From assembly GCA_963740455.1 (NCBI GenBank), contig CAVUEF010000012.1, forward strand, positions 148,298-212,297: a stretch of 64,000 nucleotides of DNA, read 5' to 3'. This stretch comes from an uncultured beta proteobacterium (GTDB taxonomy: Bacteria > Pseudomonadota > Gammaproteobacteria > Burkholderiales > Burkholderiaceae_C). Shown here in pieces: positions 20,744 through 46,279 of this stretch; the first letter of the stretch is position 1, and every line of letters starts with the position of its first letter. Below the pieces are notes generated by a model. The model had not been told where the DNA came from, did no database searches, and saw only the letters and a list, made by a program, of their open reading frames with translations. The position numbers and the translations under genes were made by a program.

Positions 20744-20758
20744 TGGCATAGAAAGTGC
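20744..20758 (+). promoter_or_regulatory. candidate sigma-54 (-24/-12) promoter upstream of the PEP-CTERM gene
   Basis: TGGCAT-AGAAA-GTGC against consensus TGGCAC-N5-TTGC, with correct GG/GC spacing, about 40 nt upstream of ATG 20799. Confidence 0.35.
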
Positions 20759-20798
20759 GTGTAGATGCGCGTAACCAAGTCTATGAGGGGATCAGATA

Positions 20799-21797: not shown

Positions 21798-21915
21798 TTC
21801 AAAGCTTGAAGTCGTAATCAATCGTCAGCGGCGCATGGTCGCTGAAGCGCCGGTCGAGATAGATGGACTCGCGCCTGGCCAGCGCCGCGAGGCCGGGCGT
21901 CGCCAAGTGATAGTC
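21798..21915 (-). repeat. 118-bp direct repeat copy inside the intact xthA 3' end
   Basis: Pairs with 20164-20281 (2 mismatches). Confidence 0.9.
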
Positions 21916-28206: not shown

Positions 28207-28207
28207 G

Positions 28208-30257: not shown

Positions 30258-30261
30258 GTGC

Positions 30262-31446: not shown

Positions 31447-31784
31447 GGTCTTGCCCTCATCGGTTCTTCGGGAAAGCCCAGGGCGAGTTGCTGTGCAATC
31501 CACTGGGCGTCGGCCTGGCTGAGCAATGTGCGCCAGGGCGGCATCGGCGTGCCCGGCCGACCATGGTAAATCGTCGCAGCCAGCGACTCGACGGGTTTGT
31601 CTGCCAGCGCCTCGCGCGTCAGCGCGGGTCCGAGTCCCCCCGTCAGCCGCATGCCGTGGCAGGCGCCACAGTCCTGCCGCACCATGCGCGTCAACGTGCG
31701 TTGGCGCTCGACGGCGGGCGCACTGTCGGCGGCGTGCGCAACTGCGACGCCAAGCAAGAGCAGCGCCGCGAGCTTGCGCATCAT
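31443..31784 (-). CDS. nirC: cytochrome c55X NirC
   Basis: 113 aa starting MMRKLAALLLL. Signal peptide, CGACHG heme c motif, position between nirM and nirF. Confidence 0.8.
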   Translation of the reverse strand: MMRKLAALLLLGVAVAHAADSAPAVERQRTLTRMVRQDCGACHGMRLTGGLGPALTREALADKPVESLAATIYHGRPGTPMPPWRTLLSQADAQWIAQQLALGFPEEPMRARP

Positions 31785-31786
31785 GG

Positions 31787-32098
31787 TTAGGATTTGAGAA
31801 TCAGCTCGATCGCGGCTTTCAGATCGGCATCGCTGATCTTGTCGACCGGATTGGGCGCCATCGGAATCGGGCCGAACGTGCCCGAGCCGCCCGAGCGGAC
31901 CTTGGCCATCAGCTTGGCCATCACGTCCTGGCCCTTGTACTTGGCGGCAATGTCCTTGAACGCCGGGCCGACAATTTTCTTGTCCTTTGAATGGCAGGCC
32001 ATGCAGCCGGCCTTGGTCATGGCTTCTTCGGTGCTGGCCCAGGCGCCGGCGCTTGCCAGCGCCAGCGACGCGGCGATGATCAGAGAGGTCTTCTTCAT
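31787..32098 (-). CDS. nirM: cytochrome c551/c552 (class I c-type), NirM
   Basis: 103 aa. Signal peptide, CMACHS motif, distal Met region (GPIPMAPN). Confidence 0.85.
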   Translation of the reverse strand: MKKTSLIIAASLALASAGAWASTEEAMTKAGCMACHSKDKKIVGPAFKDIAAKYKGQDVMAKLMAKVRSGGSGTFGPIPMAPNPVDKISDADLKAAIELILKS

Positions 32099-32168
32099 GC
32101 GGAAATCCTTTGAAAATCCAGTCAGGGGAGCAGGGCGTGCCGAGTGTAGCGGCGAAGCACTTGCGTTC

Positions 32169-32213
32169 GCCCGACCGACTCGAGTCCGTGGCAGTCACGG
32201 CCTCAAGTCGGGC
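32169..32213 (-). terminator. intercistronic stem-loop between nirS and nirM (possible attenuator or mRNA-stabilising hairpin)
   Basis: Outer stem GCCCGAC/GTCGGGC enclosing CCGTG..CACGG and the GACTCGAGTC palindrome. No clear U-tract. Confidence 0.3.
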
Positions 32214-32228
32214 TGAGCTTCAGCAATC

Positions 32229-33992
<1,764 letters not shown>

Positions 33993-34036
33993 TCAATACT
34001 GGCTGCGATGGTCAGCCAGACACGGCATCGCCGTCC

Positions 34037-34050
34037 TTGAACCAGTTCAA
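34037..34050. promoter_or_regulatory. FNR/Dnr/NnrR-type binding site in the nirS-nirE divergent promoter region
   Basis: Perfect palindrome TTGAACCAGTTCAA (TTGA-N6-TCAA). Centred 84 nt upstream of the nirS ATG and 65 nt upstream of the nirE ATG. Confidence 0.75.
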
Positions 34051-34108
34051 GGACCCATGCACCTTAGGCCTGAACAATGCGCCAATGCCATCAGAAGGAC
34101 TCGAGCGA

Positions 34109-34933
34109 ATGAGTGTGATCAACGAACCGCTGCGCTTTGATGCGCCAACGCTCATGCCGCGCCCGGCCAAGGTGACGCTGGTGGGCGCCGGGCCGGGCGA
34201 TCCCGAGCTCTTGACGATCAAGGCCGCCAAGGCGCTGGAAGCGGCGACGCTGGTGCTGATCGACCATTTGGTGGGACCGGAGGTGCTGGAGCTCGTCCCT
34301 GCGTCGGCCCGGCGCATCTATGTCGGCAAGGAGTCCGGCCACCACAGCATGCCGCAGCAGGCCATCATCGAGCTGATGATAGATCTCGCCCGCAGCGGCA
34401 AGCCGGTGTTGCGGCTCAAAGGAGGTGACCCCTACATCTTTGGCCGCGGCGGTGAAGAGGCCCAGGCGCTGGCCGGCGCCGGCGTGCCGTTCGAAGTGAT
34501 CCCCGGCATCAGCGCGGCGCAGGGCGCTGCGGCGCTCGCCGGCATACCGCTGACGCACCGCGACCATGCCTGCTCGCTGGTGCTGACGACCGGGCATTTG
34601 CGCGGCGAAGGCGCCAAGCGCGGCGTCGATCTCGACTGGGGGCTGTTGGCCCGCCCCAACCAGACGGTGGTGGTCTATATGGGTGTGGCCACGCTGCCGG
34701 TGATCTGCCGCGAACTGGTCGCGCATGGCTTGCCCGCCGCCACACCGGCAGCGACCGTGGAGCGCGCCACGCGCGCCGACCAACGCACGGTGGTGGGCAC
34801 CCTGGCCACGCTGCCCGGGCTGGCTCTCGCGCATGACGTGAAGTCACCGGCGCTGATCATCATCGGCGGCGTGGTGTCGCTGCACGCGACGCTGGGATCA
34901 TCTGCTGTCGAGCAGCGACTGGCCGCGCCCTGA
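34109..34933 (+). CDS. nirE: uroporphyrinogen-III C-methyltransferase (NirE/CobA)
   Basis: GAGPGDPELLT motif and RLKGGDPYIFGRGGEE. Start ATG 34109 is preceded by GAAGGA (alternative ATG 34085). Divergent from nirS. Confidence 0.9.
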   Translation: MSVINEPLRFDAPTLMPRPAKVTLVGAGPGDPELLTIKAAKALEAATLVLIDHLVGPEVLELVPASARRIYVGKESGHHSMPQQAIIELMIDLARSGKPVLRLKGGDPYIFGRGGEEAQALAGAGVPFEVIPGISAAQGAAALAGIPLTHRDHACSLVLTTGHLRGEGAKRGVDLDWGLLARPNQTVVVYMGVATLPVICRELVAHGLPAATPAATVERATRADQRTVVGTLATLPGLALAHDVKSPALIIIGGVVSLHATLGSSAVEQRLAAP

Positions 34934-34942
34934 GGCGATGAC

Positions 34943-36850
34943 TCAGCCTTGAGGCGGCGCAGCCGACGGCAAGAACGCATCCGAAAAGCACATGTCGTCG
35001 CCGAGCCCGTGCGCGATGAAGGTCGGCACCGCCGCCTCGACCATCTTGACTGAGCCGCACACATAGACCTCGAACCCGCGCATGTCGGGAAAGTCGGCCA
35101 GCATGGCCTCGTGGACCAACCCGCGCCGTCCGGTCCATGCATCAAGCGGTTCGGCATCCGAGAGCACCGGCACGAAATGGAAGTTGGCATGCTCGCGCTG
35201 CCACTGTTCGGCAAGTTCGACCATGTACAGATCTTGCGGACGACGCGCGCCCCAGTAGAGCCACATCGGCCGCGTCAAGCCGCGCTGGAACGCGTCTTCG
35301 ACAATGCTCTTGACCGGCGCAAAGCCGGTCGCACCCGCCACGAACAGGATAGTCCGCTCGCTCTCGCGCAAGGTGAAGTTGCCCAGCGGCCCTTCGAAGT
35401 GAAGCGCGTCGCCCACCTTCATGTCGGTGAACACATGGCCGGTGAACCGACCGCCCGGAATGCGCCGCACATGCAGCTCGATGCGATCATTGTGATGCGG
35501 CGCATTGGCGAACGAGAATGCGCGTCGCCGGCCGTCGTCGGGAACGATGTTGATGTACTGGCCGGCGACAAAATCAATGCGCTCGGCGCCGGGCAGCACA
35601 ACGGTGAGCCGGGTCAGATCTTCGGTGAGGCGCTCAATTCTCTCGATGCGCCCGACATGGGCGCGCGGCGTCTCCCGCACCGCGTCCATCTCGCCCGCCA
35701 CCTCGATTTCGAGGTCCGACAAAGGCGTGGCGCAGCACATCAAGGCCTTGCCTTGGGCGCGCTGACTGTCTGGCAAGGCAGCACGCTGGTAGGCGCCATG
35801 GTCGACGCTGCCGTGCGACACCGTGCACAGACACACGCCGCAGCCGCCGTTGCGGCACTCATAGGGCAGGTTCAGGCCTTCGCGCAAGCCGGCCTCGAGC
35901 AAGGTCTCGCCGGCGCGGATGGCGACGGGGTCTTGCCGGCCTTGCACCGTCATGCGGAACTCCCCTGCCTTGGCGCGCCTGAATTTCGGCGGAAGCCAGG
36001 GCAGCGCCGCGATCAGCAAGGTCGCTGCGCCGAGCAGCGCCCATACGTTTGCCAGCGGCCACACATAGAGCAGCGGAAACACCGTCAGGTAGAACCAGTC
36101 GAGTTGCAGCAGCGCCGGCGCGATGTCGAGCTGCGCCGCGCCGCCCTGGCTCAGCGCGGGCTTGATCAGCGACAGTGCCAGCAGCGTCAACGCCACGCTG
36201 ATCAGAATCGGTCGCGGCGGGAGCGTCTTGGCTTTGGGAACGCGCTGCACATGGATCCACATCAGCAGCAGCACGAGCAGCGGAATGCCGATATGCATGA
36301 ACGACAGCAGCGAGAAGAAGCGGTCGTTGACGCTGGTCGTGTAGATGAAGTTGCGCACCAAGCTGCCACCAAAACCGGGCAGCCAGTCGAGCCACTCGAA
36401 GCTGGCCACAATGACGAACTGCGCCAGCTGATCCCAGGGCAGCATATAGCCGTTGATGCCCGATATATAGACGCCCCAGATCAGCGCCACGCCGCTGACC
36501 CACGAGAACCAGCGAAAGCCGCGCATGCGGTTGAAGGCAAAGTGGCGCAGCATGTGCAGCAGCATCGTCAGCACCATCGCGTCCGAGGCATAGCGATGCA
36601 GGCTGCGCAAAATGCCGCCCGCGAACCACTGGCCGTGCGTCAAGGCCTCGACCGAGCCGTACGCGCCGGCCACACCGGTCTCGAAAAACGCATACAGGTA
36701 CAGCCCGCTGCCGGCCACCAGCCAGAACAGCGCAAAGCTGATCTCGCCCAGGTGGTACAGGGGATTGAGCCGGTCGCCAAAGGCGCGGTTGAAGAGCGCC
36801 TCGACACGCATGAAACACCACTGCAACAGCGACTGAAGGCGCGTCATCAT
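34943..36850 (-). CDS. fusion protein: diheme cytochrome b (bc1-type N-terminal domain) + [2Fe-2S] ferredoxin + FAD/NAD(P)H ferredoxin-reductase module
   Basis: 635 aa. Two bis-His pairs spaced 14 residues apart (RSLHRYASDAMVLTMLLHMLR; FMHIGIPLLVLLLMWIHVQR). Plant-type cluster motif CRNGGCGVC..CC. FNR motifs RAFSFAN, GPLGNF, AGATGFAP, YVCGS. ATGA overlap with the upstream gene. Confidence 0.8.
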   Translation of the reverse strand: MMTRLQSLLQWCFMRVEALFNRAFGDRLNPLYHLGEISFALFWLVAGSGLYLYAFFETGVAGAYGSVEALTHGQWFAGGILRSLHRYASDAMVLTMLLHMLRHFAFNRMRGFRWFSWVSGVALIWGVYISGINGYMLPWDQLAQFVIVASFEWLDWLPGFGGSLVRNFIYTTSVNDRFFSLLSFMHIGIPLLVLLLMWIHVQRVPKAKTLPPRPILISVALTLLALSLIKPALSQGGAAQLDIAPALLQLDWFYLTVFPLLYVWPLANVWALLGAATLLIAALPWLPPKFRRAKAGEFRMTVQGRQDPVAIRAGETLLEAGLREGLNLPYECRNGGCGVCLCTVSHGSVDHGAYQRAALPDSQRAQGKALMCCATPLSDLEIEVAGEMDAVRETPRAHVGRIERIERLTEDLTRLTVVLPGAERIDFVAGQYINIVPDDGRRRAFSFANAPHHNDRIELHVRRIPGGRFTGHVFTDMKVGDALHFEGPLGNFTLRESERTILFVAGATGFAPVKSIVEDAFQRGLTRPMWLYWGARRPQDLYMVELAEQWQREHANFHFVPVLSDAEPLDAWTGRRGLVHEAMLADFPDMRGFEVYVCGSVKMVEAAVPTFIAHGLGDDMCFSDAFLPSAAPPQG

Positions 36851-38250
36851 GGCAAGTTCCGGGTCGCAGCCGGGCGCCGCATCGCGCGAATCATGACGAC
36901 CACAAACAGCAGCCCGCCAACAATGGCCACCAGGCCGCCCAGGCCCATCAACCCCATGCCGGCGATCTCACCGAAGCCGCGCAGCACCTGCTCGGCGCCG
37001 GCCACCTTGCGCTGCACGCCATAGCCCCCCGACCAGACCAGGCCGGTGATATGCATCAGCTGGCCCACGCCGTAGACGCCGGGCTGCAAGGCCGCGAGGC
37101 GGCCGCTCGGCGCGGCGTAACCCAATTGCGGCAGCAAGTGATAAGCCAGGCCCATCAGCGCCAGCGTGACCCCGACGATGCAGCCGTGGTAATGCGCCGG
37201 AATGCGCACGTCGGCACCATTGATGAAGACGCCGATCAGCCCGCCCGACGCGAACAGCACGATGGACCAGATGAGTGCTGCGCGCAAGGCGCGGGTCGTC
37301 GTCTCGCTGCGCGGCATGGACGGCAGTGCCAGCACCACCGCCAAGGCAATCGGCACGATCGCCACGCCGCCGCCCAGGCGCATCGCCCAGGTCAGCAGAT
37401 TGCGGTGCTCGACCGACGCGATCGGGTAGGCGAGATAGGCGTAAGGCGTGACGAATACGCCCACCAGCGCCAGCACGAACATCAGCAAGGCGATGCGGGG
37501 GCTCAGCAGCAGCTTGGCGCCACACGCGCTGGCCAGCCACAGCCAGGCCACCAGCATCAGCAAGGTCCAGGTGAACTGGAGCGCATGCCCGCCGCCCCAG
37601 AACAGGACTTCGTAGTACATCTTGCCGACCAGCATCGGCGGCGTTGTCGCGAACGACCAGGCAAAGGCCAGCAAAGCCACCGCTGCCGAGACGGCGGCGG
37701 CATTCAGCCCGAAGTGCAGCACACCATCGCCGCCGAAGCCCAGGCCGAGCTTGGGCGCAGTGAACAAGCTGCGCAGCACGAGCACACCGGCGCCGAGCGC
37801 AAAAATCAGCAGGCCGGCCATGAACAGCGGGCGCTCAAGCACCGGGATGTAATTGGCCATGATGGGGTCGCCGTGCCCGATGAACGCCGCCAGCGCCATC
37901 AGGCTGGCACCCGTCCCGCTCAAGCCCAGAGCCGCCCAGCCCCAGGCCAGGCCGCGCGTCGATCCGTTCAGACTCCAGAGCAGCCCCGCCAGCGCCACAA
38001 ACCACACCAGCACCGACAGATCGACATGCACGACCAGCGCGACGCGAAAGAAATCCGCGCCGGGCAGGATCTGGTTGATGAGCGGCGTGCGCGACGCCAC
38101 CAGCAGCACCGAGAACAAGCCCGCGCCGATCAGCGCAATCAGTCCGAGCCACAACCAGGCGCGCGCCAGTTGACGCTGCGTGTCGCGCGGTACCGCCAGC
38201 GTGTACGGGTGGCCGTCGGCCAGTGAAGGGTCGAATGGAGTGGATGTCAT
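36847..38250 (-). CDS. highly divergent heme-copper-oxidase subunit-I-like 12-TM protein (stand-alone; NnrS-like alternative not excluded)
   Basis: 467 aa. Histidines at HCO-like spacing: H75 (VVHVD), H222 (FWGGGHALQF, compare cbb3 WWYGHNAVGF), E281-H282 where HCOs have HH, H353/H355 (AHYHG). ATGA overlaps at both ends. Confidence 0.5.
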   Translation of the reverse strand: MTSTPFDPSLADGHPYTLAVPRDTQRQLARAWLWLGLIALIGAGLFSVLLVASRTPLINQILPGADFFRVALVVHVDLSVLVWFVALAGLLWSLNGSTRGLAWGWAALGLSGTGASLMALAAFIGHGDPIMANYIPVLERPLFMAGLLIFALGAGVLVLRSLFTAPKLGLGFGGDGVLHFGLNAAAVSAAVALLAFAWSFATTPPMLVGKMYYEVLFWGGGHALQFTWTLLMLVAWLWLASACGAKLLLSPRIALLMFVLALVGVFVTPYAYLAYPIASVEHRNLLTWAMRLGGGVAIVPIALAVVLALPSMPRSETTTRALRAALIWSIVLFASGGLIGVFINGADVRIPAHYHGCIVGVTLALMGLAYHLLPQLGYAAPSGRLAALQPGVYGVGQLMHITGLVWSGGYGVQRKVAGAEQVLRGFGEIAGMGLMGLGGLVAIVGGLLFVVVMIRAMRRPAATRNLP

Positions 38251-38765
38251 CGCAGTGTGATCCCGCCCTTGGCCGGATCGAAGTCGATCACCAGAATTTG
38301 CGCCGGTTTCAATGTCACGCTGGCTTCGCGCACAAAGTCGAAGCCTGGCGTGCGCACATCGTTCTTCAGCCGGATCGCCAGCTGATGGGTGCCGGCGCTG
38401 ACCTGCAGGCGCTGGTAGAAGGCCGATGCACCGTCGCGCGACAGGCCCGAAGGCATCGCTACATGGTGCAGCACGCGCTTGCCATCGAGGTCGAGCTCCA
38501 CCGTGATCGGCGAGCGCTCGCGCGGACACACCACCGGCGCGCGCATATTGGGCGGCAGCTTGGCCAGCTCTTGCGGCGTCGCCTTGTGGCACGCCGACAC
38601 CGGCAAGCCCTGGTGGTTGAAGCTGAACTTGATCAAGGCCTGGTCGGGCGCCAGGTGGCGGTACGGCGGCCAGTTGGAGAACGCGCCAATGAACAGCGCG
38701 AACAATCCGTACAGCAGCGCCTGCGCGATCCAGGCCTTCGGGGTGAATGGGGTCTTGTCAGTCAT
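38247..38765 (-). CDS. membrane-anchored periplasmic protein of unknown function (single N-terminal TM helix plus a beta-rich domain of about 130 aa)
   Basis: 172 aa starting MTDKTPFTPKAWIAQALLYGLFALFIGAF. No CXXCH and no CuA motif. 8-nt overlap upstream and ATGA overlap downstream. Confidence 0.6.
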   Translation of the reverse strand: MTDKTPFTPKAWIAQALLYGLFALFIGAFSNWPPYRHLAPDQALIKFSFNHQGLPVSACHKATPQELAKLPPNMRAPVVCPRERSPITVELDLDGKRVLHHVAMPSGLSRDGASAFYQRLQVSAGTHQLAIRLKNDVRTPGFDFVREASVTLKPAQILVIDFDPAKGGITLR

Positions 38766-40296
38766 GGGATGGGGTAAGGCATTGTGCCCGCAAGGCAAGC
38801 CGCTGGCGCAAGCGCAGCAAGGCCGCTTGCAAGGTGGACTCTGCGCCCGCATCGGCCCAGGCCAGTTCGAGTTGATCAAGTGGCACCGAGTCGCGCAGGT
38901 GGGGCTCACGCAGCCCTTTCAGCCGCTCGGCGGTCCAGCGTTGGCCGAGCCGGAATTCGCAGCCGCCTTGCGAGCAGCCGCTGACCAGCACGCCGTCGGC
39001 ACCGTCGCGCAACGCGTACTCGATGAACGAGGGCGGCAGCTGGCCGGCGCACATCAGGCTGAAGACAACAACATCGGGGGCTTCGAGCGCGCTGACCTTG
39101 GCACCGCAATCGCAGCCAAACACGACGATCTTGTGCGGCGCATCGGCCAGTCCTTGCGAGAGGCGCCGGCGCAGTGCGCCGATGGGGGCGGACGGCATGT
39201 CGATGCCGGTGACAAGTTCCGCCGCGCCGCGAAACGGTGTGGACGAGGGGCAGGCGCCAACGCAGATGCCGCAGCTCGCGCACAGGTCGGCGTCGACCTG
39301 TGCCATCTGGCGGATGCTGCGCACGGGATGCGCCACCATCGTCACCGCGGCATACGGGCAGTCGTCGAAGCAGCGACGGCAGCCGTTGCAATTGGCCGCG
39401 TCGACCACGGCAATCGGCGCCACCGCAGCTTGCGGCAGATAGGGCAGCGCGAACAGCAGCAAGAGCGCCGCCGACAGCAGCGTCCAGACGAAACCGGGCG
39501 AGGTCGCGTAGACGAGCGGATGCACAAACAGGAGCAGCCAATCAAAGCTCAGCGCGCCGGGCACGCTCGCCAGATCGGCTGGTGCCTGACTCATCACCGG
39601 CGCGACCAGCGCCAATCCGAGCAGGGTCAAACCGGTACCGATGGCCAGCGGGCGCGGCGGAAACACCGCCGCGCGGCTGATGCGCTGAATATGGAACCAC
39701 AGCGCGAACACCGACAGCAGCGGCACGCCCAGGTGCACGAACACCAGCAGCGAGAAGAGGCGGTCGCTCAGCGACGCCGCGTTGAGAAAGTTGCGCGTCA
39801 ACGGCGCGGCAAAGAGCGGCAGCCGGTCCAGCCACTCGGCCGTGGCGAGCGCCGAGAACTGGCCGAGCTGGTCCCAGTTCAACCAGAAGCCGCCAATCGC
39901 GCTGATGAAAACCAGCAGCAGCAAGGGCACGCCGGTGAGCCACGAGAAGCGGCGAAAACCGCGGTAGCGGCCGAACAGCGCCTCGCGCAGCAGATGGCCG
40001 AGCATCAGCACGACAAAGGCATCGGCCGCATAGCGGTGCAGGCTGCGCAGCACGCCGCCCAAATACCACTGTTGACGTGAGAGCTGGTCAATTGATCGAT
40101 ACGCGTCGGCCACCGAGGTATCGAGCGCCGCATACAGGTAGATGCCGCTCAAACCCAGCAACCAGAACATCATGAAGGCCAGCGTGCCCAGGTGCCGCAG
40201 GGGATTGAGGCCGGAGCCGAACGCGCCATCGAAACCGTGCTCGCAGCGCCGGTAGCCGGCCAGCGCCAGCAGGCGGATCGATCGCAGCGGGTGCAT
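38758..40296 (-). CDS. fusion protein: diheme cytochrome b (paralog of the 34943-36850 N-domain) + 2x[4Fe-4S] ferredoxin + MvhD/FlpD-like domain
   Basis: 512 aa. Bis-His pairs RSLHRYAADAFVVLMLGHLLR and FVHLGVPLLSVFALWFHIQR. Cluster motifs CNGCRRCFDDCP and CASCGICVGACP. MvhD-like segment VVFGCDCGAKV..MCAGQLPPSFIEYALRDGADGVLVSGCSQGGCEF. Confidence 0.75.
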   Translation of the reverse strand: MHPLRSIRLLALAGYRRCEHGFDGAFGSGLNPLRHLGTLAFMMFWLLGLSGIYLYAALDTSVADAYRSIDQLSRQQWYLGGVLRSLHRYAADAFVVLMLGHLLREALFGRYRGFRRFSWLTGVPLLLLVFISAIGGFWLNWDQLGQFSALATAEWLDRLPLFAAPLTRNFLNAASLSDRLFSLLVFVHLGVPLLSVFALWFHIQRISRAAVFPPRPLAIGTGLTLLGLALVAPVMSQAPADLASVPGALSFDWLLLFVHPLVYATSPGFVWTLLSAALLLLFALPYLPQAAVAPIAVVDAANCNGCRRCFDDCPYAAVTMVAHPVRSIRQMAQVDADLCASCGICVGACPSSTPFRGAAELVTGIDMPSAPIGALRRRLSQGLADAPHKIVVFGCDCGAKVSALEAPDVVVFSLMCAGQLPPSFIEYALRDGADGVLVSGCSQGGCEFRLGQRWTAERLKGLREPHLRDSVPLDQLELAWADAGAESTLQAALLRLRQRLALRAQCLTPSHD

Positions 40297-40302
40297 CAGG
40301 AC

Positions 40303-41130
40303 TCAGCTCGGCCGCGCTGCGCGCCGCAGGCGCCGCTGGTTGCGCCATTCGAGCAGAAAGAACCAGACCATGGCCAGCGCGAAGGTCACGCCGCCAGCGA
40401 TCTCGATGACCAATCCGTAATTCGTTCGGTAGGTGCCGGTCACCGGGTCGTACACGGTGCACAGAATGCGCACGCGGTCAATCAGCTCGGACAGCGGCAG
40501 GCCGGCCGGCATCGGCTGGTCGCGCAGCAGCAGCCGCATCGGCTCGCCGAGCTTGTCGCGCGACAGGTTTTCGCCATACACCTGGGCATAGACGCGACCG
40601 CGCGGGTCGAGCACCGACACCGCCAGCAAGTGATCGAAACCGGCCGGCGTGGCCACATAGCTGAAGCCGAAGTCGCGCGTCAAGGCGTCGACCGAGGCCT
40701 GCGGCGGGCTCAGAAACTGCCAGTTCGGCGCCTTGATGCGCATTTGCGCCGCAAACGAGCGCATCGCCGCCGGCGAATCGGACGGCTGGTTGAAACCGAT
40801 GCTGACGACGCTGAACTTGTCGGCACCGAACACCTGGCTCAATTGGTCGACGGCCTCGGCCAGCGACTTGGTGGTGGTCGGACAGACCTGGAAGCAACCC
40901 GTGTAGATGAAGCTCACCAACAGCGGCTTGCCGCGATAGTCGGCGAGCCGCACCAAGCGACCTTGCGTGTCGAGCAGTTGATGCGCGCCCACGTCGCGGC
41001 CGATGGCGGCCTGGCTGTCGCGCAGGGCGCTCGCCGCGTCAAGCGCGGGCGTGGCGCTACCGGCCGGTTGCGCAGCGAGCGGCGCGACCAGCACGGCCCA
41101 CAGCAGTGCCAGCGCAGCGCGGGAGTTCAT
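40303..41130 (-). CDS. senC: SCO1/SenC copper chaperone with a C-terminal membrane extension
   Basis: Start MNSRAALALL (ATGA overlap with the ctaB stop). CFQVCP (CxxxC) motif and conserved His (FDHLLAVS). C-terminal TM helix. Confidence 0.85.
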   Translation of the reverse strand: MNSRAALALLWAVLVAPLAAQPAGSATPALDAASALRDSQAAIGRDVGAHQLLDTQGRLVRLADYRGKPLLVSFIYTGCFQVCPTTTKSLAEAVDQLSQVFGADKFSVVSIGFNQPSDSPAAMRSFAAQMRIKAPNWQFLSPPQASVDALTRDFGFSYVATPAGFDHLLAVSVLDPRGRVYAQVYGENLSRDKLGEPMRLLLRDQPMPAGLPLSELIDRVRILCTVYDPVTGTYRTNYGLVIEIAGGVTFALAMVWFFLLEWRNQRRLRRAARPS

Positions 41131-42026
41131 CGCAACAGACCGTCGAGCGTCGCTGCCGCAAGCACCATGCTCAGCTGCACCAGCGACGCGAAGAACGCGC
41201 CCATCGCCGTCTTGCGATTGGTGTCGCGCAACAGCTGCCAGGTCTTGTGCACGAAGTGCGCGCCGCCCGTGGCAGCGCCCATCAAGTAGATCGGGCCGGC
41301 GCCAAAAAACGCTGGCAACAACGACGCGCCAACCAGTGCCAGGGTGCTGTAAAAAACAATCTGCGCCGCACGCTGCGGCCCCACCACGACGGGCAGCATG
41401 GGCACACCTGCGGCCGCATAGTCGGCCTGATTGGCGATGGCCAGGCTCCAGAAATGCGGTGGCGTCCAGAGGAACAGCACGCATGCCAGCAGCAGCGGCA
41501 GCGCGCTGATCTGGGGGTTGACCGCGGCCGCGCCGGCCAGCACGGCAAAACTACCGGCCAGGCCGCCGATCACGATATTCAGCGAGCTGCGCCGCTTCAG
41601 CCACAAGGTGTAGACCACGCCATAGAAGAACGCACCCAGAAACGTGTACAGCGCGGCCATACCGTTCAACACCAGCCAGGCGGCGGCCACCGCACCTGCC
41701 AGTAGCAGGGCGATCAGCACCAGCCAGGCCGGCGAATGCGGCAACGCGCCGGTCACGAAAGCCCGACCGCGCGTGCGCGCCATCAGGCGATCGGTGTCGG
41801 CCTCGGCGTACTGGTTGAACGCGCCGGCCGCGGCCGACGACACCAGTACCGACAGGGCCAGCACCACCACTTGCCAGACAGCGGGCGCAGGGCCCGGCGT
41901 GACCGCCAGCCCGACCAGCGCGGTGATCATGATCATCACGCCGATGCGCAGTTTGAACAGGCCGAGCACCTCGCGGACGAGGCCGACGGCAGATCGTTGC
42001 GCGGGATGTGCCGCGGTCGTGCTCAT
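41127..42026 (-). CDS. ctaB: protoheme IX farnesyltransferase (heme O synthase)
   Basis: 299-aa UbiA-family polytopic protein (..NQYAEADTDRLMARTRGR.., ..WTPPHFWSLA..). Confidence 0.9.
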   Translation of the reverse strand: MSTTAAHPAQRSAVGLVREVLGLFKLRIGVMIMITALVGLAVTPGPAPAVWQVVVLALSVLVSSAAAGAFNQYAEADTDRLMARTRGRAFVTGALPHSPAWLVLIALLLAGAVAAAWLVLNGMAALYTFLGAFFYGVVYTLWLKRRSSLNIVIGGLAGSFAVLAGAAAVNPQISALPLLLACVLFLWTPPHFWSLAIANQADYAAAGVPMLPVVVGPQRAAQIVFYSTLALVGASLLPAFFGAGPIYLMGAATGGAHFVHKTWQLLRDTNRKTAMGAFFASLVQLSMVLAAATLDGLLR

Positions 42027-42030
42027 GACA

Positions 42031-43731
42031 TCAGCTCAGTCCCCAGACCTGGGACAGGTACTTCCAGTTGATGAAGTAGTACAGCACGAAGGACACCAGG
42101 AACACCATCGCCAGCGCGAAGGTACCCGGCGCGGCAAACCCGGCCGAACCGTAGGTCTGTGCCGCGATGGTCGGCGCCGTGGGTGGAATCGGTGTGAACT
42201 TCGGGCTCACCGTGCCGCTGTCGAGCTTCTTGCCCCACAACAGCGAACCGACGGTCACAAAGATGTAGATCCCCCCGCCGACAATGGCGGCAATGCCGAA
42301 GATGCCGACCAGACCCATCATCAGGTAGGCGGCGCCCGGCCATTCATAGGCCATCGGCGAGCCGTTGAAGGCCAGGTCCCAGTGGCGGCGCGGAACACCC
42401 AGCGTGCCCGCACCCATCATGACCAGCACGAAGCCGTACATCGACAGGCCGAACAGATAGGGCTGCCACTGTGCCAGCTTGGGCGCGATCATCTCGCGCT
42501 TGAACAGCACCGGGATCAGAAAGTAGGTCAGCGCCATGAAGGTCAGGGTGGTCCCGATCACCACCGTGGCGTGGAAATGGCCCGGCACGTAGATGGTGTT
42601 GTGGATGATCATGTTGAGCTGTTCTGTGCCCATCATGACGCCCGAGATGCCGCCCAGGAAACCGAAGCCGATGATCGAGATGAACACGCCCGAGAACACC
42701 GGGTTGCCCCAGGGCGCCTTGCGCAGCCATTCGAACAGGCCCTTGTTGTAGCCCTTGGCGCGCTGCGCGACTTCGATCGCGCCGGGGATGGTGAGTCCGT
42801 GGATCATCGAGGCCAGCACCGCGAAATACATGAAGTAGCTGGTGTTGACGACCTTCCACGCGGTCGACATGCCGGGGTCGGCGAGCAGGTGGTGTGCGCT
42901 GGCGAGTTGCAGGAACAGGATGTAGAGCAGGAAGGCGCCGCGGCTGACGCGCTCGCTCATCGGCTTGGCGCCGAACGCGATGGCCGCCACCGCGTACCAG
43001 ATCGAGATGTGCGCGGCCACGTTGATCTGCTGCGACGAGTGGCCGAAGGCCCACCAGATGGTGCGGTACATGAGCGGATCAACCGCCTTGATGACGCCCA
43101 CCGACAGCAAGAAGGTGGGGATCAGGATGATGGCGCCCGACGCGATCGTGAACACGGCGATGATCGCCGCGGTGATGGCACCGAACGTGACCAGCGGCAC
43201 CGAGCCCTGGTAGGTCTTTTCGCGCTTGGCCACGACCAGCGTGCCGAAGAAGACAAAGCACGCGATAAGCGCGCCGACGGCGAACAGAATCAGTCCGAGG
43301 TAGAAATGCGGCGCGGCCATCATCGGCACGTACGACGTCATCATGACACTGGAGCCGCCCTGGAACACGGCGACATTGTTCATGATCCCGCCGATCAGCA
43401 TCAAGGCGAAGGCCAGCCACGCCATCTTGGGCGTCGCGAGCCGACAGCGCAACAGCGTTGACGACGCGAAATACAGGACGGCGATCTCGAAGAAGATGAC
43501 CCAGAAAATCAGCATGTCGATGCCGTGCGCGGTGAGCACCTGGTAGAAGGTGTCGGCCGCGAGCCAATGCACGGCGGGCCAGCGAGTCAACGCCACGCCG
43601 ATGGCCAGGATGCCACCGATGAGCAGGAACACGACCGCGACGAACGCGTTGGCCTTCATCAATTTTTCGGCATTGGCCTCGAATTGCAGTCCCGAGCGCG
43701 GGCAGGTTCGATAAGTTGTTGTTACGGACAT
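42031..43731 (-). CDS. heme-copper oxidase subunit I, B-family-like, lacking the cross-link tyrosine (candidate NO reductase of the sNOR/eNOR type)
   Basis: All six His ligands are present (LTAHG; WWAFGHSSQQ; ASAHHLL; PGHFHAT). Helix VI reads GHSSQQ instead of GHP(E/I)VY. ATG 43731 is preceded by GGAGG (alternative ATG 43755). Confidence 0.8.
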   Translation of the reverse strand: MSVTTTYRTCPRSGLQFEANAEKLMKANAFVAVVFLLIGGILAIGVALTRWPAVHWLAADTFYQVLTAHGIDMLIFWVIFFEIAVLYFASSTLLRCRLATPKMAWLAFALMLIGGIMNNVAVFQGGSSVMMTSYVPMMAAPHFYLGLILFAVGALIACFVFFGTLVVAKREKTYQGSVPLVTFGAITAAIIAVFTIASGAIILIPTFLLSVGVIKAVDPLMYRTIWWAFGHSSQQINVAAHISIWYAVAAIAFGAKPMSERVSRGAFLLYILFLQLASAHHLLADPGMSTAWKVVNTSYFMYFAVLASMIHGLTIPGAIEVAQRAKGYNKGLFEWLRKAPWGNPVFSGVFISIIGFGFLGGISGVMMGTEQLNMIIHNTIYVPGHFHATVVIGTTLTFMALTYFLIPVLFKREMIAPKLAQWQPYLFGLSMYGFVLVMMGAGTLGVPRRHWDLAFNGSPMAYEWPGAAYLMMGLVGIFGIAAIVGGGIYIFVTVGSLLWGKKLDSGTVSPKFTPIPPTAPTIAAQTYGSAGFAAPGTFALAMVFLVSFVLYYFINWKYLSQVWGLS

Positions 43732-43744
43732 GGTGCCCTCCGCC

Positions 43745-44284
43745 TTACTTGACATAGATGCGGCCCACCATCGTGTGATGGCCGATGCCGCAGTATTCGT
43801 TGCAGACTACCGAGAAGGTACCGGCCTGGTTGGGCGTGACGGTGACCACATGCTCGTAGCCCGGCACGATCTGGATATTGATATTGGCCGGCTGCAGCGA
43901 GAAGCCGTGGTTGTAGTCCATCGACGTCAGGTGCAAGCGATAGGTCTTGTCCTTCTCGAACTCGACGATGGGCCAGAATTTCCAGAGGCTTGCGACGATG
44001 TAGACATCACTGCCGGGCGGCGGCGCAACAACCGGAATCTTGTCGGCGGTCTCGGTGCGCACCGTGTACTTGTCGACCACCGCCTGGGCCTTGGCGGTGA
44101 ACATCGCCGAGGTGGTCTTGTAGGTCTCGGTGGAGAGATTCTGTTTGCCGTAGACATGCCAGCCGACCATCATGGCGAACATGATCAGACACCAGATCAG
44201 GGCAATCACGATCCAGGTGCCTTCGACACGGTCCAGCGGGTGTTTCCACCAAAGTCGTTCTGCGGGGGGCAGGATAGCGCTCAT
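43745..44284 (-). CDS. heme-copper oxidase subunit II with an intact CuA site
   Basis: 179 aa. One TM helix and a cupredoxin domain with DYNHGF and CNEYCGIGHHTM (H..CxExCGxxHxxM). Confidence 0.85.
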   Translation of the reverse strand: MSAILPPAERLWWKHPLDRVEGTWIVIALIWCLIMFAMMVGWHVYGKQNLSTETYKTTSAMFTAKAQAVVDKYTVRTETADKIPVVAPPPGSDVYIVASLWKFWPIVEFEKDKTYRLHLTSMDYNHGFSLQPANINIQIVPGYEHVVTVTPNQAGTFSVVCNEYCGIGHHTMVGRIYVK

Positions 44285-44308
44285 ATTGCTCGTCCTCGTG
44301 ATGGTTGT

Positions 44309-44464
44309 TTACTTGGCCAAAGGCACGGTGAGGATGTCGATGACGCCCCACAACGTGTAAACAACCATCGGCACCATCACGCCCAGAAAGAGCAGCAGAA
44401 ACGGGTTGTCGAGCAATTGCTGCATCATCGGAATCTTCTCGTCGGGGTTATTCGTGTCGCTCAT
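44309..44464 (-). CDS. small single-TM oxidase-associated subunit
   Basis: 51 aa (MSDTNNPDEKIPMMQQLLDNPFLLLFLGVMVPMVVYTLWGVIDILTVPLAK). AGGAGA lies before the ATG. 24 nt upstream of subunit II. First gene of the operon. Confidence 0.6.
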   Translation of the reverse strand: MSDTNNPDEKIPMMQQLLDNPFLLLFLGVMVPMVVYTLWGVIDILTVPLAK

Positions 44465-44522: not shown

Positions 44523-44536
44523 TTGACTTGAACCAA
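44523..44536. promoter_or_regulatory. imperfect FNR/Dnr-like box upstream of the oxidase operon
   Basis: TTGACTTGAACCAA (TTGA-N6-CCAA, one mismatch in the right half), about 65 nt upstream of ATG 44464, in the divergent region shared with ctaA. Confidence 0.3.
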
Positions 44537-44618: not shown

Positions 44619-45581
44619 ATGAACATGACCCAGCGTCGACAAACCTGGCTGCGACGTGCGGCCCTGTTGTGTGCGGCACTGGTGCTGGCCATCACCAGTC
44701 TGAGCGCCTTCATTCGGCTCTCGCAAGCGGGCTTGGGTTGCAGCGAATGGCCGCAGTGTTATGGCAGCCGCTTGCGTGACGCACAGCATGGCCGCGTGGC
44801 CAGCGTCACGGACAGCGCTGCGGTCGTCGCCGCGCGGCTCACGCATCGCGTGGTGGCGGTGACCGCCTTGCTGCTCGTGATTGCGATGGTGGTGCTGTGC
44901 TTCGGCAATCGGCCCTTCCTGCTGCGTGAGGGCATGCTGGCGTTGGCCTTGCTCGCCTTGGCGCTGGGATTGGCGGTACTCGGCCGCTGGACCGCAGGGA
45001 CGCGCGTGCCGGCGGTGGCGATCGGCAACTTGCTGGGCGGTCTGCTGATGCTGGCGCTGAGCTGGCGGTTGGCAGCCCGCGCGGCGCCGCGGCTCGACTC
45101 GCGATTGCGCTTCTGGGCAAGGATGGGGGCGGCAGTGTTGCTCATCCAGGTGACTGCGGGGGCACTGCTCAGCGCATCGTATGCGGGTCTGAGCTGTGCC
45201 GGAGCGCTGGATTGCCTGCGCACGGCGCAAGCCGCGCAGTGGCCTTGGCACGCCTTGAACCCGTGGCGCGAACCGGTGTTCGACGCCATGCAAAGCGCGC
45301 CGAACCCCGCGGGCGCACTCGTCCAACTGGTGCACCGCGGCGGCGCGCTGCTGACCTTGCTGGTGTTGGCCCCGCTGGGCGTGGCGGTGCTGCGTGGCGC
45401 GCACCAACGCGAGGGCGCGGCACTGCTGGCGCTGCTGGTCATCCAGATCGGCGTGGGCGTGCTCATGCCGATCGCGTCCCTGCCGCTGGGCTTGGCGCTG
45501 GCTCACAACATCGTTGCCGCATTGTTGCTGGCGACACTGGTCCGCCTAGAATGCGCTTCCATGAGTCAGGAGAAGCCCTAG
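44619..45581 (+). CDS. ctaA: heme A synthase (COX15/CtaA family)
   Basis: Start MNMTQRRQTW. GLGCSEWPQCYG motif, conserved His in TM helices (LTHRV, LVHRG, LAHNI), 8 TM helices. Confidence 0.85.
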   Translation: MNMTQRRQTWLRRAALLCAALVLAITSLSAFIRLSQAGLGCSEWPQCYGSRLRDAQHGRVASVTDSAAVVAARLTHRVVAVTALLLVIAMVVLCFGNRPFLLREGMLALALLALALGLAVLGRWTAGTRVPAVAIGNLLGGLLMLALSWRLAARAAPRLDSRLRFWARMGAAVLLIQVTAGALLSASYAGLSCAGALDCLRTAQAAQWPWHALNPWREPVFDAMQSAPNPAGALVQLVHRGGALLTLLVLAPLGVAVLRGAHQREGAALLALLVIQIGVGVLMPIASLPLGLALAHNIVAALLLATLVRLECASMSQEKP

Positions 45582-45596
45582 TGGAAATGCGCCAAT

Positions 45597-46279
45597 TCGA
45601 CGTGCCGCGCTACCTGTCGGTGCTGCCGCTGTTCAACGACATGAGCCCGACCGAGTTGGAAGGCCTGGCCAGCGGCTGCACGCTGCGCCGGTTGGCGCGC
45701 GGCGACGCGGTATTTCGCGTGGGCGAACCCTGCGAAGCATTCCACGTCACCGTGATGGGCCAGGTCAAGCTGTTCGCGATTTCGCCCGCGGGTCAGGAAA
45801 AAGTCATCGAGCTGGTCGGCCCCGGCCAGAGCTTTGCCGAGGCGCTGATGTTCACCGACAAGCCCTACATCATCAATGCGCAGGCGCTCACCGACACGTT
45901 GCTGCTGACTGTGCAAAAGAGCGCCGTGCTGGCCGAAATCGACCGGGACAGGCGCTTCGCGCTGCGCATGCTGGCGGGCATTTCGCGCCGTCTGCACGCG
46001 CTGGTGGGCGACGTCGAAGCCTATGCGCTGCACAGCGGTTTGCAGCGCGTGATCGGCTACCTGCTGCGCGACCAGGCGCCCGAAGATGAAAGCTCGAATG
46101 GCGAGGTCACCGTGTCGCTGCCGGTGAGCAAGGCCACCATCGCGTCGCGCTTGTCGCTGACGCCCGAATACTTTTCGCGCGTGCTGCACGAGCTGGAAGC
46201 CAAAGGCTTTATCGAGGTCGACAAGCGCGACATACGGATTCGCGACCCGCAGGCGCTGGCACGCTACCAGGCGTCCTGA
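45597..46279 (+). CDS. Crp/Fnr-family transcriptional regulator, Dnr/NnrR type
   Basis: cNMP-binding-like fold and a C-terminal HTH with the E--SR recognition motif (TPEYFSRVL). No N-terminal FNR Cys cluster. Sits beside the nir and oxidase genes. GTG 45591 is an alternative start. Confidence 0.85.

What the first reader, a model, noticed from the sequence alone, without database searches (positions are those of the whole stretch)
42031..44464. CuA-containing B-family-like oxidase lacking the His-Tyr cross-link, linked to senC, ctaB and ctaA: candidate alternative NO reductase
Subunit I keeps all six canonical His ligands, but helix VI reads WWAFGHSSQQ instead of W..GHP(E/I)VY. The cross-linked catalytic Tyr of O2 reductases is therefore missing from its usual position. 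Subunit II retains a full CuA site. The genes sit with a copper chaperone (senC) and heme O and heme A synthases, beside nirS and a Dnr-type regulator. No norCB or qnor is nearby. From memory, this combination matches the proposed CuA-type NOR families related to B-type oxidases (sNOR/eNOR; norSY-senC-type loci). I cannot assign the family without an alignment.
Basis: partly seen in the sequence, partly recalled or inferred. Interest (0 to 1): 0.7.

Follow-up and report, generated by a model that had tools for sequence, protein, structure and literature searches.

The report
eNOR-type nitric oxide reductase operon

Summary
ORF 42031-43755(-) is a heme-copper oxidoreductase subunit I. Its closest solved relative is Thermus ba3 oxidase. 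All six His ligands are present (H77, H239, H288, H289, H393, H395). The cross-link Tyr (ba3 Y237) is Gln243, in the motif WWAFGHSSQQ. Subunit II (43745-44284) keeps every CuA ligand.

Published tables give Gln at this position as the eNOR signature (sNOR has Asn, cNOR/qNOR Glu, gNOR Asp). So this is eNOR, not sNOR. The GHxxQQ motif is invariant in 81 orthologs and in 37 distant relatives, including haloarchaeal and Thermus sequences.

Purified Rhodothermus marinus eNOR reduces NO and not O2, and it uses heme A. That fits the adjacent ctaB and ctaA.

The unit is larger than reported. It is a nine-gene operon (34943-44464, minus strand):
- a conserved 51-aa membrane peptide
- subunits II and I
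- ctaB
- SCO1
- two di-heme cytochrome b fusion proteins
- a small beta-sandwich protein
- a second, degenerate HCO-fold protein

An FNR/Dnr-type box precedes it. The same operon was described in Ferrigenium straubiae in 2026. Verdict: a new member of a known kind. Only the accessory module remains mechanistically open.

The parts
44523..44536 (-). FNR/Dnr-type box TTGGTTCAAGTCAA, 59-72 nt upstream of the first operon gene
   Evidence: It matches TTGAT-N4-ATCAA at 8 of 10 positions. A box scoring at least 8/10 occurs in 53 of 79 orthologous upstream regions, against 4.9% of shuffles and 7 of 80 coding controls. Its function is inferred.
44309..44464 (-). 51-aa single-helix membrane peptide, a probable third eNOR subunit (analogous in placement to ba3 subunit IIa)
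   Evidence: It is found upstream of subunit II in 78 of 80 loci. The motif LLDNP[FW]LLL is also present in the peptides upstream of the Thermus and Defluviimonas homologs. One TM helix is predicted. It has no Pfam or NCBIfam family.
43745..44284 (-). eNOR subunit II, with one TM helix and a CuA cupredoxin domain
   Evidence: Pfam COX2. It aligns to ba3 subunit II at E 7e-16. CuA ligands H126, C161, E163, C165, H169 and M172, and E21 (equivalent to ba3 II E15), are invariant in 80 sequences.
42031..43731 (-). eNOR subunit I (the ORF extends to 43755); 13 TM helices, six His ligands, Gln243 in place of the cross-link Tyr
   Evidence: It is 100% identical to database protein P0001 (566 aa).
41127..42026 (-). 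ctaB / cyoE heme O synthase
   Evidence: NCBIfam TIGR01473 at 255.7 bits, above the cut-off of 210.3. It is syntenic in nearly all loci.
40303..41130 (-). SCO1/SenC copper chaperone with a C-terminal TM extension
   Evidence: Pfam SCO1-SenC at 55.8 bits. The CxxxC motif and His are conserved. Its start overlaps the ctaB stop by 4 nt.
38758..40296 (-). Fusion of di-heme cytochrome b, 2x[4Fe-4S] ferredoxin and an FlpD/MvhD-like domain
   Evidence: Pfam Cytochrome_B, Fer4 families and FlpD. The four heme His residues H87, H101, H188 and H202 are present. It is syntenic in 61 loci and in the distant P0121 locus.
38247..38765 (-). 172-aa membrane-anchored beta-sandwich protein of unknown function
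   Evidence: It has no family. The AF2 model has pLDDT 89.7 and shows one TM helix plus a beta-sandwich. Foldseek finds no PDB match at E<=0.001. C59, C80 and PRERSP are invariant.
36847..38250 (-). Second HCO-fold protein (HCO2), equivalent to the 'eNOR scaffold protein' of the Ferrigenium preprint. Heme ligands are kept and the helix-VII His pair is lost.
   Evidence: Pfam COX1 at only 42.6 bits. A profile search finds no PDB sequence hit. hhalign to eNOR I gives 99.6% probability. The AF2 model has pTM 0.85 and the best Foldseek hit is ba3 subunit I at TM 0.69.
34943..36850 (-). Fusion of di-heme cytochrome b, plant-type 2Fe-2S ferredoxin and an FAD/NAD(P)H reductase
   Evidence: Pfam Cytochrome_B, Fer2, FAD_binding_6 and NAD_binding_1. 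It is BenC-like at 211 bits. Heme His residues H85, H99, H186 and H200 are present. It is syntenic in 55 loci.
44619..45581 (+). ctaA heme A synthase, divergently transcribed
   Evidence: Pfam COX15-CtaA at 106.6 bits. It is adjacent in about half of the related loci.
45587..46279 (+). Crp/Fnr-family (Dnr-type) regulator
   Evidence: Pfam cNMP_binding and HTH_Crp_2. It is frequently adjacent in related loci.
32229..33959 (-). nirS cytochrome cd1 nitrite reductase, the source of NO (context only; the rest of the nir cluster lies at 25412-31850)
   Evidence: Pfam Cytochrom_D1 at 488 bits.

Best explanation
The region encodes an eNOR-family nitric oxide reductase, a B-family-derived heme-copper oxidoreductase. 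It is the first part of a nine-gene, translationally coupled operon (34943-44464, minus strand).

Proposed mechanism. Electrons from a periplasmic carrier (for example the NirC-type cytochrome c of the neighbouring nir cluster) enter at CuA of subunit II. They pass to the low-spin heme (H77/H395) and then to the binuclear site. That site is the high-spin heme (H393) plus a metal held by H239, H288 and H289. There, two NO are reduced to N2O and water. This is a two-electron reaction and needs no His-Tyr radical cofactor, so the Tyr is replaced by Gln243. Protons probably arrive from the cytoplasm through a K-channel analogue: subunit II E21, then S267, Y254, Y278, S316, H319 and T322. That would make the step electrogenic. 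Both hemes are probably A-type, made by the linked ctaB and the O2-dependent ctaA. SCO1 loads CuA. A Dnr/FNR-type box and the adjacent dnr gene place expression under low-O2/NO control together with nirS.

Shown here: the sequence anatomy, family placement, conservation and synteny. Inferred from the literature: NO reductase activity, heme A content and proton uptake. Unknown: the identity of the non-heme metal (Fe or Cu), and the roles of the four accessory genes.
For: - Fold and ligands: ba3-like subunit I with all six His; Tyr237 replaced by Gln243.
- Family signature: Gln at this position is the published eNOR diagnostic (PMC8756737 section 2.7.1 and Table A4).
- Conservation: Q242 and Q243 occur in 37 of 37 sequences (36 distant representatives plus the window protein) and 81 of 81 aligned orthologs.
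- Placement: in an NJ tree the protein sits in the GHxxQQ clade with the haloarchaeal (Natrarchaeobius) and Thermus megaplasmid homologs, apart from GHPxVY B-family oxidases.
- The Thermus homolog reads GHFK, so its low-spin heme would have a His/Lys ligand pair. One representative has Lys at the H77 position. Both match the variant Murali et al. describe for some eNORs.
- CuA site: complete.
- K-channel: ba3 Y248, S261, S309 and T315 are conserved, and subunit II E15 has an equivalent. Murali et al. report the same for eNOR.
- Biochemistry of the family: purified R. marinus eNOR reduces NO, does not reduce O2, contains heme A(s) in both sites, and many operons carry ctaA (PMC11214002).
- Same operon elsewhere: the order II, I, heme O synthase, Sco1, two cytochrome b fusions and an HCO-like 'scaffold' protein is described for Ferrigenium straubiae. 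Its products were detected in the proteome (except heme O synthase and PerM), and eNOR I/II transcripts were the most abundant of its heme-copper oxidoreductases under denitrifying Fe(II) oxidation (bioRxiv 10.64898/2026.01.22.701106).
- Context: a full nirS cluster and dnr lie alongside, and an FNR-type box is enriched upstream.
Against: - No activity data exist for this protein or for any Burkholderiales ortholog.
- I could not obtain the R. marinus reference sequence or the published eNOR alignment, so family placement rests on the diagnostic residue, motif conservation and a rough NJ tree without bootstrap.
- The measured turnover of R. marinus eNOR is low (0.68 NO per second).
- Two ba3 K-channel positions differ (Y244->I250, T312->H319).
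- A conserved Tyr (Y278) exists on helix VII. Without model coordinates, its distance from H239 could not be measured.
- The rest of the genome could not be searched for cNOR or qNOR.
Confidence: 0.82

Rival explanations
1. It is an sNOR (norSY-senC type), the family found in ammonia oxidisers, rather than an eNOR.
For: A CuA subunit, loss of the Tyr and a linked senC/SCO1 gene are shared with sNOR loci. Murali et al. group sNOR with the B-family-derived NORs.
Against: sNOR (like bNOR) has Asn at the Tyr position, whereas this protein has Gln (Table A4). Murali et al. state that sNOR lacks the serine equivalent to ba3 S309; here S316 is invariant. The protein clusters with GHxxQQ sequences. 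The heme A genes fit eNOR.
Confidence: 0.02
2. It is a terminal O2 reductase, an unusual B- or K-family-like cytochrome oxidase that works without the canonical Tyr or with a relocated one.
For: The closest solved structures are O2 reductases. Databases name it cytochrome c oxidase subunit I. The nearest Tyr-containing relatives (GHxxQY, archaeal) are only 35-45% identical. Y278 on helix VII is conserved. The heme A requirement implies that some O2 is present.
Against: The Tyr at +4 from the CuB His is absent in every family member. Y278 lies 10 residues before the His pair, compared with about 6 for the relocated Tyr of cbb3 oxidases (the cbb3 figure is from my own knowledge of its structure). 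Y278 more plausibly replaces the lost K-channel Tyr (ba3 Y244 is I250 here). R. marinus eNOR showed no O2 reduction with several donors. Murali et al. found no migrated Tyr in models of these families. The nir/dnr context and the FNR box also argue against it.
Confidence: 0.06
3. It is a real eNOR-family enzyme, but its physiological role is NO detoxification or some other chemistry rather than respiratory, energy-conserving NO reduction. The organism's main NOR would be a cNOR or qNOR elsewhere in the genome.
For: Many organisms carry several NOR families. The in vitro rate of eNOR is low. Only 64 kb of the genome is visible.
Against: The operon sits directly beside a full nirS cluster with a shared type of regulator. 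No nor gene occurs in the window. In R. marinus and Ferrigenium, eNOR is the only recognisable NOR and is highly expressed under denitrifying conditions.
Confidence: 0.1

Closest known systems
eNOR family of heme-copper oxidoreductases (Hemp & Gennis 2008; Murali et al. 2024 PNAS; type enzyme from Rhodothermus marinus DSM 4252)
   Same: - B-family-like subunit I with six His ligands
- Gln at the cross-link Tyr position
- CuA subunit II
- K-channel-like residues
- Linked heme O and heme A synthase genes
- Co-location with nir genes
   Different: Nothing defining differs. This Burkholderiales-type operon carries four extra genes (two cytochrome b fusions, a beta-sandwich protein and a degenerate HCO paralog). 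The haloarchaeal locus and the Thermus locus lack them.
eNOR operon of Ferrigenium straubiae strain KS (bioRxiv 10.64898/2026.01.22.701106)
   Same: The gene set matches: eNOR II, eNOR I, heme O synthase, Sco1, cytochrome b-FeS-FAD-NADH fusion, a hypothetical protein, the HCO-like 'eNOR scaffold protein', and the cytochrome b-FeS-FlpD fusion.
   Different: - The order of the accessory genes differs. The window has the FlpD fusion first; Ferrigenium has the FNR fusion first. Both orders occur among the 80 loci.
- Ferrigenium has an extra PerM gene and no ctaA in the operon.
- The preprint calls the cytochrome b fusions 'rather unusual' and proposes them as Ferrigenium marker genes. Here they occur in 55-61 of 80 Burkholderiales, Lysobacterales and other loci.
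Thermus thermophilus cytochrome ba3 oxidase (B-family O2 reductase; PDB 1EHK)
   Same: It is among the best solved-structure matches (7deg_A, also an O2 reductase, scores slightly higher). It shares 13 TM helices, all metal ligands, the CuA subunit II, a single K-type channel and a small extra one-helix subunit.
   Different: - ba3 has the H233-Y237 cross-link and reduces O2; here Y237 is Gln.
- GHPIVY is replaced by GHSSQQ.
- Identity is roughly 30%, as for other B-family oxidases.
sNOR and bNOR (CuANOR)
   Same: They are also CuA-containing, B-family-derived NORs that lack the Tyr.
   Different: They have Asn, not Gln, at the Tyr position. sNOR lacks the S309 equivalent.

Membership tests
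eNOR | HCO subunit I fold with the six canonical His ligands (two for the low-spin heme, one for the high-spin heme, three for the B-site metal) | tested here: met
   H77, H239, H288, H289, H393 and H395 map onto ba3 H72, H233, H282, H283, H384 and H386. All are invariant in 81 orthologs.
eNOR | Gln at the position of the cross-linked Tyr, four residues after the first B-site His (PMC8756737 section 2.7.1 and Table A4) | tested here: met
   Q243 aligns with ba3 Y237. Gln occurs here in 37 of 37 sequences (36 distant representatives plus the window protein) and 81 of 81 aligned orthologs.
eNOR | Groups phylogenetically with eNOR sequences, apart from B-family O2 reductases and the other NOR families | tested here: inconclusive
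   In an NJ tree the protein falls in a GHxxQQ clade with haloarchaeal and Thermus homologs. The literature names these as lineages carrying eNOR. GHPxVY oxidases are separate. There was no bootstrap, and the R. marinus reference and the published alignment could not be obtained.
eNOR | Subunit II with a CuA-binding cupredoxin domain | tested here: met
   H126, C161, E163, C165, H169 and M172 align to the ba3 CuA ligands and are invariant.
eNOR | Conserved K-channel-like polar residues as in B-family oxidases | tested here: met
   Y254, S267, S316 and T322 correspond to ba3 Y248, S261, S309 and T315. Subunit II E21 corresponds to ba3 II E15. Two positions differ (I250, H319). Y278 is a conserved extra Tyr.
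eNOR | Heme A (heme As) in both heme sites | not testable with these tools
   Only indirect support: ctaB lies in the operon and ctaA is adjacent.
eNOR | Catalyses NO reduction to N2O and does not reduce O2 | not testable with these tools
   Shown for the R. marinus enzyme only (PMC11214002).
sNOR | Asn at the cross-link Tyr position, giving the same active site as bNOR | tested here: not met
   The residue is Gln243. Table A4 is quoted.
sNOR | Lacks the serine equivalent to ba3 S309 | tested here: not met
   S316 is present and invariant.
B-family O2 reductase | His-Tyr cross-link, with the motif GHP(x)VY on helix VI | tested here: not met
   The motif is GHSSQQ. B-family representatives with GHPxVY are at most 34% identical.
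gNOR | One B-site His replaced by Asp, and a subunit II without CuA ligands | tested here: not met
   All three B-site His residues and the full CuA site are present.
cNOR / qNOR | Glu at +4 from the first B-site His (HLWVEG), with a cytochrome c subunit or a fused N-terminal domain | tested here: not met
   The +4 residue is Gln and the partner subunit carries CuA. The HLWVEG motif occurs nowhere in the window.

The most novel reading that the evidence does not exclude
The four accessory genes always found downstream of this type of eNOR may not be mere assembly factors. They are two di-heme cytochromes b fused to cytoplasmic Fe-S/MvhD-like and 2Fe-2S/FAD/NAD(P)H modules, a membrane-anchored beta-sandwich protein, and a two-heme HCO-fold protein that has lost the helix-VII His pair. 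The most novel reading is that they form, together with eNOR, a dedicated transmembrane electron pathway. It would connect cytoplasmic NAD(P)H (or the quinol pool) directly to NO reduction. That would give an NAD(P)H-linked NO reductase supercomplex independent of bc1 and cytochrome c. Run in reverse, it would be the NAD+-reducing device proposed for Ferrigenium.
Probability: 0.2. Interest if true: 0.6.

Novelty: new member of a known kind. Interest (0 to 1): 0.3.

Why it matters
[quoted passage not shown] Genomes like this one are therefore scored as nirS-positive but nor-negative, that is, as incomplete denitrifiers or NO producers. Recognising the cluster as eNOR changes the predicted nitrogen metabolism: N2O becomes a product, and the NO step may conserve energy. 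The heme A requirement also implies micro-oxic ('aerobic') denitrification.

The family is very common in freshwater, soil and wastewater Burkholderiales. This matters for N2O budgets but is not new in kind. The open question worth pursuing is the conserved accessory module, whose function is unknown. Its products are made in Ferrigenium.

Tried and rejected
- R. marinus reference. I tried to obtain the R. marinus eNOR sequence or the published alignments. The supplements of PMC11214002 are not held. The single genome-contig scan returned only close relatives at 85-90% identity. Haloarchaeal, Thermus and Defluviimonas homologs were used instead.
- Source organism. It is Burkholderiales by nearest relatives.
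- FNR box. A search for TTGATN4ATCAA with at most one mismatch found only one unrelated site, at 16671. The operon's box has two mismatches and was supported by comparison across loci instead.
- HCO2 as a gNOR-like enzyme. At first I read its invariant E-H as a replacement for the His pair. hhalign and MAFFT both place the His pair opposite Y-A-Y. The E-H pair sits at the start of helix VIII and is not conserved in more distant homologs. I rejected the His-Glu-His site idea as unsupported.
- HCO2 against solved structures. A profile search of PDB sequences found no hit. Only the fold comparison links it to ba3.
- The 172-aa protein as a CuA-less cupredoxin subunit II. Foldseek gave no significant match, only generic beta-sandwiches at TM about 0.3. 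This is not supported.
- sNOR, gNOR, cNOR/qNOR and O2 reductase assignments were rejected on their defining residues (see the membership tests).
Full report
**Observation**

The reported interval lies on the minus strand and holds three ORFs:
- a 574-aa subunit I ORF (42031-43755)
- a 179-aa subunit II ORF (43745-44284)
- a 51-aa membrane peptide (44309-44464)

Subunit I scores 223.6 bits on Pfam COX1. It reaches only 80 bits on the NCBIfam CtaD model, whose cut-off is 670, so it is a divergent heme-copper oxidoreductase. Against all PDB sequences the best matches are B-family O2 reductases: 7deg_A (E 2e-47) and T. thermophilus ba3 (E about 5e-43), aligned over about 440 residues.

Transferring ba3 numbering through that alignment gives the following:
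- H72->H77
- H233->H239
- H282/H283->H288/H289
- H384->H393
- H386->H395
- Y237->Q243

Subunit II aligns to ba3 subunit II (E 7e-16) and keeps every CuA ligand: H126, C161, E163, C165, H169 and M172.

Three small corrections apply. The true start of subunit I is probably 43731, giving 566 aa like the 100% identical database protein P0001 and all close homologs. nirS is about 8 kb away, with four more operon genes in between.

**Which family**

Two papers give the rule.
- PMC8756737 identifies eNOR subunit I by a conserved Gln at the position of the cross-linked Tyr. Its Table A4 lists Y for O2 reductases, E for cNOR and qNOR, N for sNOR and CuANOR, Q for eNOR and D for gNOR.
- Murali et al. 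2024 (PMC11214002) define eNOR, sNOR, gNOR and nNOR as B-family-related families that lack the Tyr. They report that eNOR keeps a B-type K-channel and that many eNOR operons carry ctaA. They purified the Rhodothermus marinus enzyme: it reduces NO (0.68 per second), does not reduce O2, and has heme A(s) in both heme sites.

The window protein has Gln243 at the Tyr position, so it carries the eNOR signature and not the sNOR one.

A search of 1.84 billion representative proteins returned 1434 relatives. Every close representative covering helix VI has W..GHxxQQ(I/V)N. B-family oxidases with GHP(L/I/V)VY appear only at 34% identity or less. Gln242 and Gln243 occur in 37 of 37 sequences (36 distant representatives plus the window protein) and in 81 of 81 aligned orthologs.

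The GHxxQQ group includes a haloarchaeal protein from Natrarchaeobius. It also includes Thermus thermophilus megaplasmid proteins at 45-48% identity. The Thermus sequence reads GHFK at the helix X site, which would give a His/Lys pair on the low-spin heme. Murali et al. describe exactly this variant for some eNORs.

In a neighbour-joining tree the window protein sits inside this clade. Its sister is an archaeal GHxxQY group. That group may be the 'K family' that the FIND preprint places next to eNOR. The B family is separate. The tree has no support values, and I could not obtain the R. marinus reference. I therefore score the phylogenetic criterion as inconclusive and the residue-based criteria as met.

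**Is a Tyr hiding elsewhere?**

The eNOR-specific conserved tyrosines are these:
- Y142 (helix III-IV loop; also present in ba3)
- Y230 (nine residues before H239, toward the periplasmic side)
- Y254 (equivalent to ba3 K-channel Y248)
- Y278 on helix VII

Y278 lies ten residues before H288. The relocated cross-link Tyr of cbb3 oxidases lies about six residues before the His pair; that figure is from my own knowledge of the cbb3 structure. Y278 coincides with loss of the ba3 K-channel residue Y244 (I250 here), so it is more plausibly a channel residue. The tools return no model coordinates, so no distance could be measured. Murali et al. report no migrated Tyr in their models.

**The unit is a nine-gene operon**

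Downstream of subunit I, stops and starts overlap or lie within a few bases of each other. In order, the genes are:
- ctaB (41127-42026; TIGR01473 at 255.7 bits)
- SCO1/SenC (40303-41130)
- a cytochrome b + 2x[4Fe-4S] + FlpD/MvhD-like fusion (38758-40296)
- a 172-aa protein (38247-38765)
- a second HCO-fold protein, HCO2 (36847-38250)
- a cytochrome b + 2Fe-2S + FAD + NAD(P)H reductase fusion (34943-36850)

ctaA and a Crp/Fnr (Dnr-type) gene are transcribed divergently upstream. A complete nirS-C-F-D/L-G/H-J-N cluster plus cobA/nirE lies beyond the operon.

tblastn of all these proteins against 80 related genome loci shows the same gene set in nearly every locus long enough to hold it. The accessory genes occur in two alternative orders. 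ctaA, dnr and nirS are often adjacent. A metagenomic relative only 53% identical has a similar layout next to napA: nirS | HCO2-like, a 36-aa peptide, II, I, SCO1, cytochrome b-Fer4-FlpD, ctaB. The haloarchaeal locus has only ctaB, II and I.

The small peptide carries the motif LLDNP(F/W)LLL. The same motif is found upstream of subunit II in Thermus and in a Defluviimonas plasmid. The peptide is therefore a conserved third component.

A box TTGGTTCAAGTCAA lies 59-72 nt upstream of the first gene (44523-44536). Boxes matching TTGAT-N4-ATCAA at 8 of 10 positions or better occur in 53 of 79 orthologous upstream regions. The rate is 4.9% in shuffles and 7 of 80 in coding controls.

**Already described**

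A 2026 preprint on Ferrigenium straubiae KS lists the same operon: eNOR II, eNOR I, heme O synthase, Sco1, 'cytochrome bc1-like protein 1' (cytochrome b, Fe-S, FAD, NADH), a hypothetical protein, an 'eNOR scaffold protein' (KEGG coxI), PerM, and 'cytochrome bc1-like protein 2'. It detects all of these products except heme O synthase and PerM in the proteome. It finds eNOR I/II transcripts to be the most abundant of that organism's heme-copper oxidoreductases under denitrifying Fe(II) oxidation.

The preprint calls the cytochrome b fusions unusual and proposes them as Ferrigenium marker genes. My synteny table shows them in 55-61 of 80 loci. Most of those are MAGs, named Burkholderiales, Lysobacterales, Usitatibacteraceae or simply beta proteobacterium. 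That proposal therefore looks too narrow.

**Accessory proteins**

HCO2 has a confident 12-helix model (pTM 0.85). Its best fold match is ba3 subunit I (TM 0.69). A profile of it finds nothing in PDB by sequence. hhalign to the eNOR I profile gives 99.6% probability.

HCO2 keeps the heme ligands (H74, H352, H354) and one B-site His (GGGH221). Phe occupies the Tyr position. Both hhalign and MAFFT place the helix-VII His pair opposite Y-A-Y. A Glu-His pair at the start of helix VIII is invariant among close orthologs but not in more distant homologs. HCO2 is thus a two-heme HCO-fold protein without a three-His metal site. It is unlikely to be a conventional catalytic subunit.

The 172-aa protein models as one TM helix plus a beta-sandwich (pLDDT 89.7). 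It has no significant structural match and is not recognisably a cupredoxin.

Both cytochrome b fusions keep the four His of a di-heme cytochrome b. What this module does is not known. A transmembrane electron route between NAD(P)H or quinol and eNOR is the most interesting reading the data allow, but it is only an inference.

**Verdict**

The mechanism in the best explanation combines shown and inferred elements.
- Shown here: the ligand set, the Gln, the CuA site, the channel residues, the synteny and the regulatory box.
- Inferred from the family: NO reductase activity, heme A and electrogenic proton uptake.

No canonical nor gene lies in the 64-kb window, but the rest of the genome is unseen.

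The family is published, biochemically validated, very abundant and already described with this operon structure. This is therefore a new member of a known kind, of modest interest. Its practical value is in correcting 'cytochrome oxidase' annotations in denitrifier genomes. The uncharacterised accessory module is the part worth further work.

Noticed in passing
window 36847-38250 (-): This is a second HCO-fold protein (HCO2), about 25% identical to eNOR subunit I. It keeps the heme ligands and one B-site His but has lost the helix-VII His pair (Y-A-Y instead). It is conserved in 57 of 80 related loci. It corresponds to the 'eNOR scaffold protein' of the Ferrigenium preprint, and its function is unknown.
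   Followed up: yes
window 34943-36850 (-) and 38758-40296 (-): Two di-heme cytochrome b proteins are fused to cytoplasmic redox modules. One carries 2Fe-2S, FAD and NAD(P)H domains; the other carries 2x[4Fe-4S] and an FlpD/MvhD-like domain. Both lie inside the eNOR operon and are far more widespread (55-61 of 80 loci) than the Ferrigenium preprint's 'marker gene' proposal implies.
   Followed up: partly
window 38247-38765 (-): This is a 172-aa protein with one TM helix and a beta-sandwich domain (AF2 pLDDT 89.7). It has invariant C59, C80 and a PRERSP motif, no Pfam or NCBIfam family, and no significant Foldseek match in PDB.
   Followed up: yes
window 44309-44464 (-): This 51-aa one-helix peptide carries the motif LLDNPFLLL. 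The motif is conserved upstream of eNOR subunit II from Thermus to Proteobacteria. It is a probable unrecognised third eNOR subunit and has no family assigned in Pfam or NCBIfam.
   Followed up: partly
P0130, P0132, P0134, P0149 (representatives; P0132 and P0134 traced to Hodarchaeales/Thermoproteota, P0130 and P0149 unnamed): The closest Tyr-containing relatives of eNOR carry GHxxQY: Gln at +3 as in eNOR, with the Tyr retained at +4. Two of the four were traced to archaea (Hodarchaeales, Thermoproteota). They may be the 'K family' O2 reductases that the FIND preprint places next to eNOR.
   Followed up: no
L084 (Thermus thermophilus HB5018 plasmid pHB5018d) 8307-10665: This Thermus megaplasmid carries a three-gene eNOR-type cluster (41-aa peptide, subunit II, subunit I with GHGAQQ and GHFK). 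It lies beside a multicopper oxidase (nirK-like), a cytochrome c and an Rrf2 regulator. The subunits are annotated only as hypothetical or cbb3-type oxidase.
   Followed up: partly
window 14882-16573 (-), within the lower-GC stretch at about 12000-22000: An IS4-family transposase ORF (563 aa) lies in a region of 55-62% GC, against about 65% elsewhere. The neighbouring ORFs are secreted or repeat-rich. This may be horizontally acquired DNA.
   Followed up: no
window 6284-12007 (+): A 1907-aa ORF is made of two tandem UvrA-like ABC ATPase units, that is, a double-length UvrA paralog.
   Followed up: no
window 25412-34933: A complete cytochrome cd1 nitrite reductase cluster is present on the minus strand: nirN, nirJ, nirH/G, nirL/D, nirF, nirC and nirS. 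A uroporphyrinogen-III C-methyltransferase gene (cobA/nirE) is on the plus strand.
   Followed up: partly
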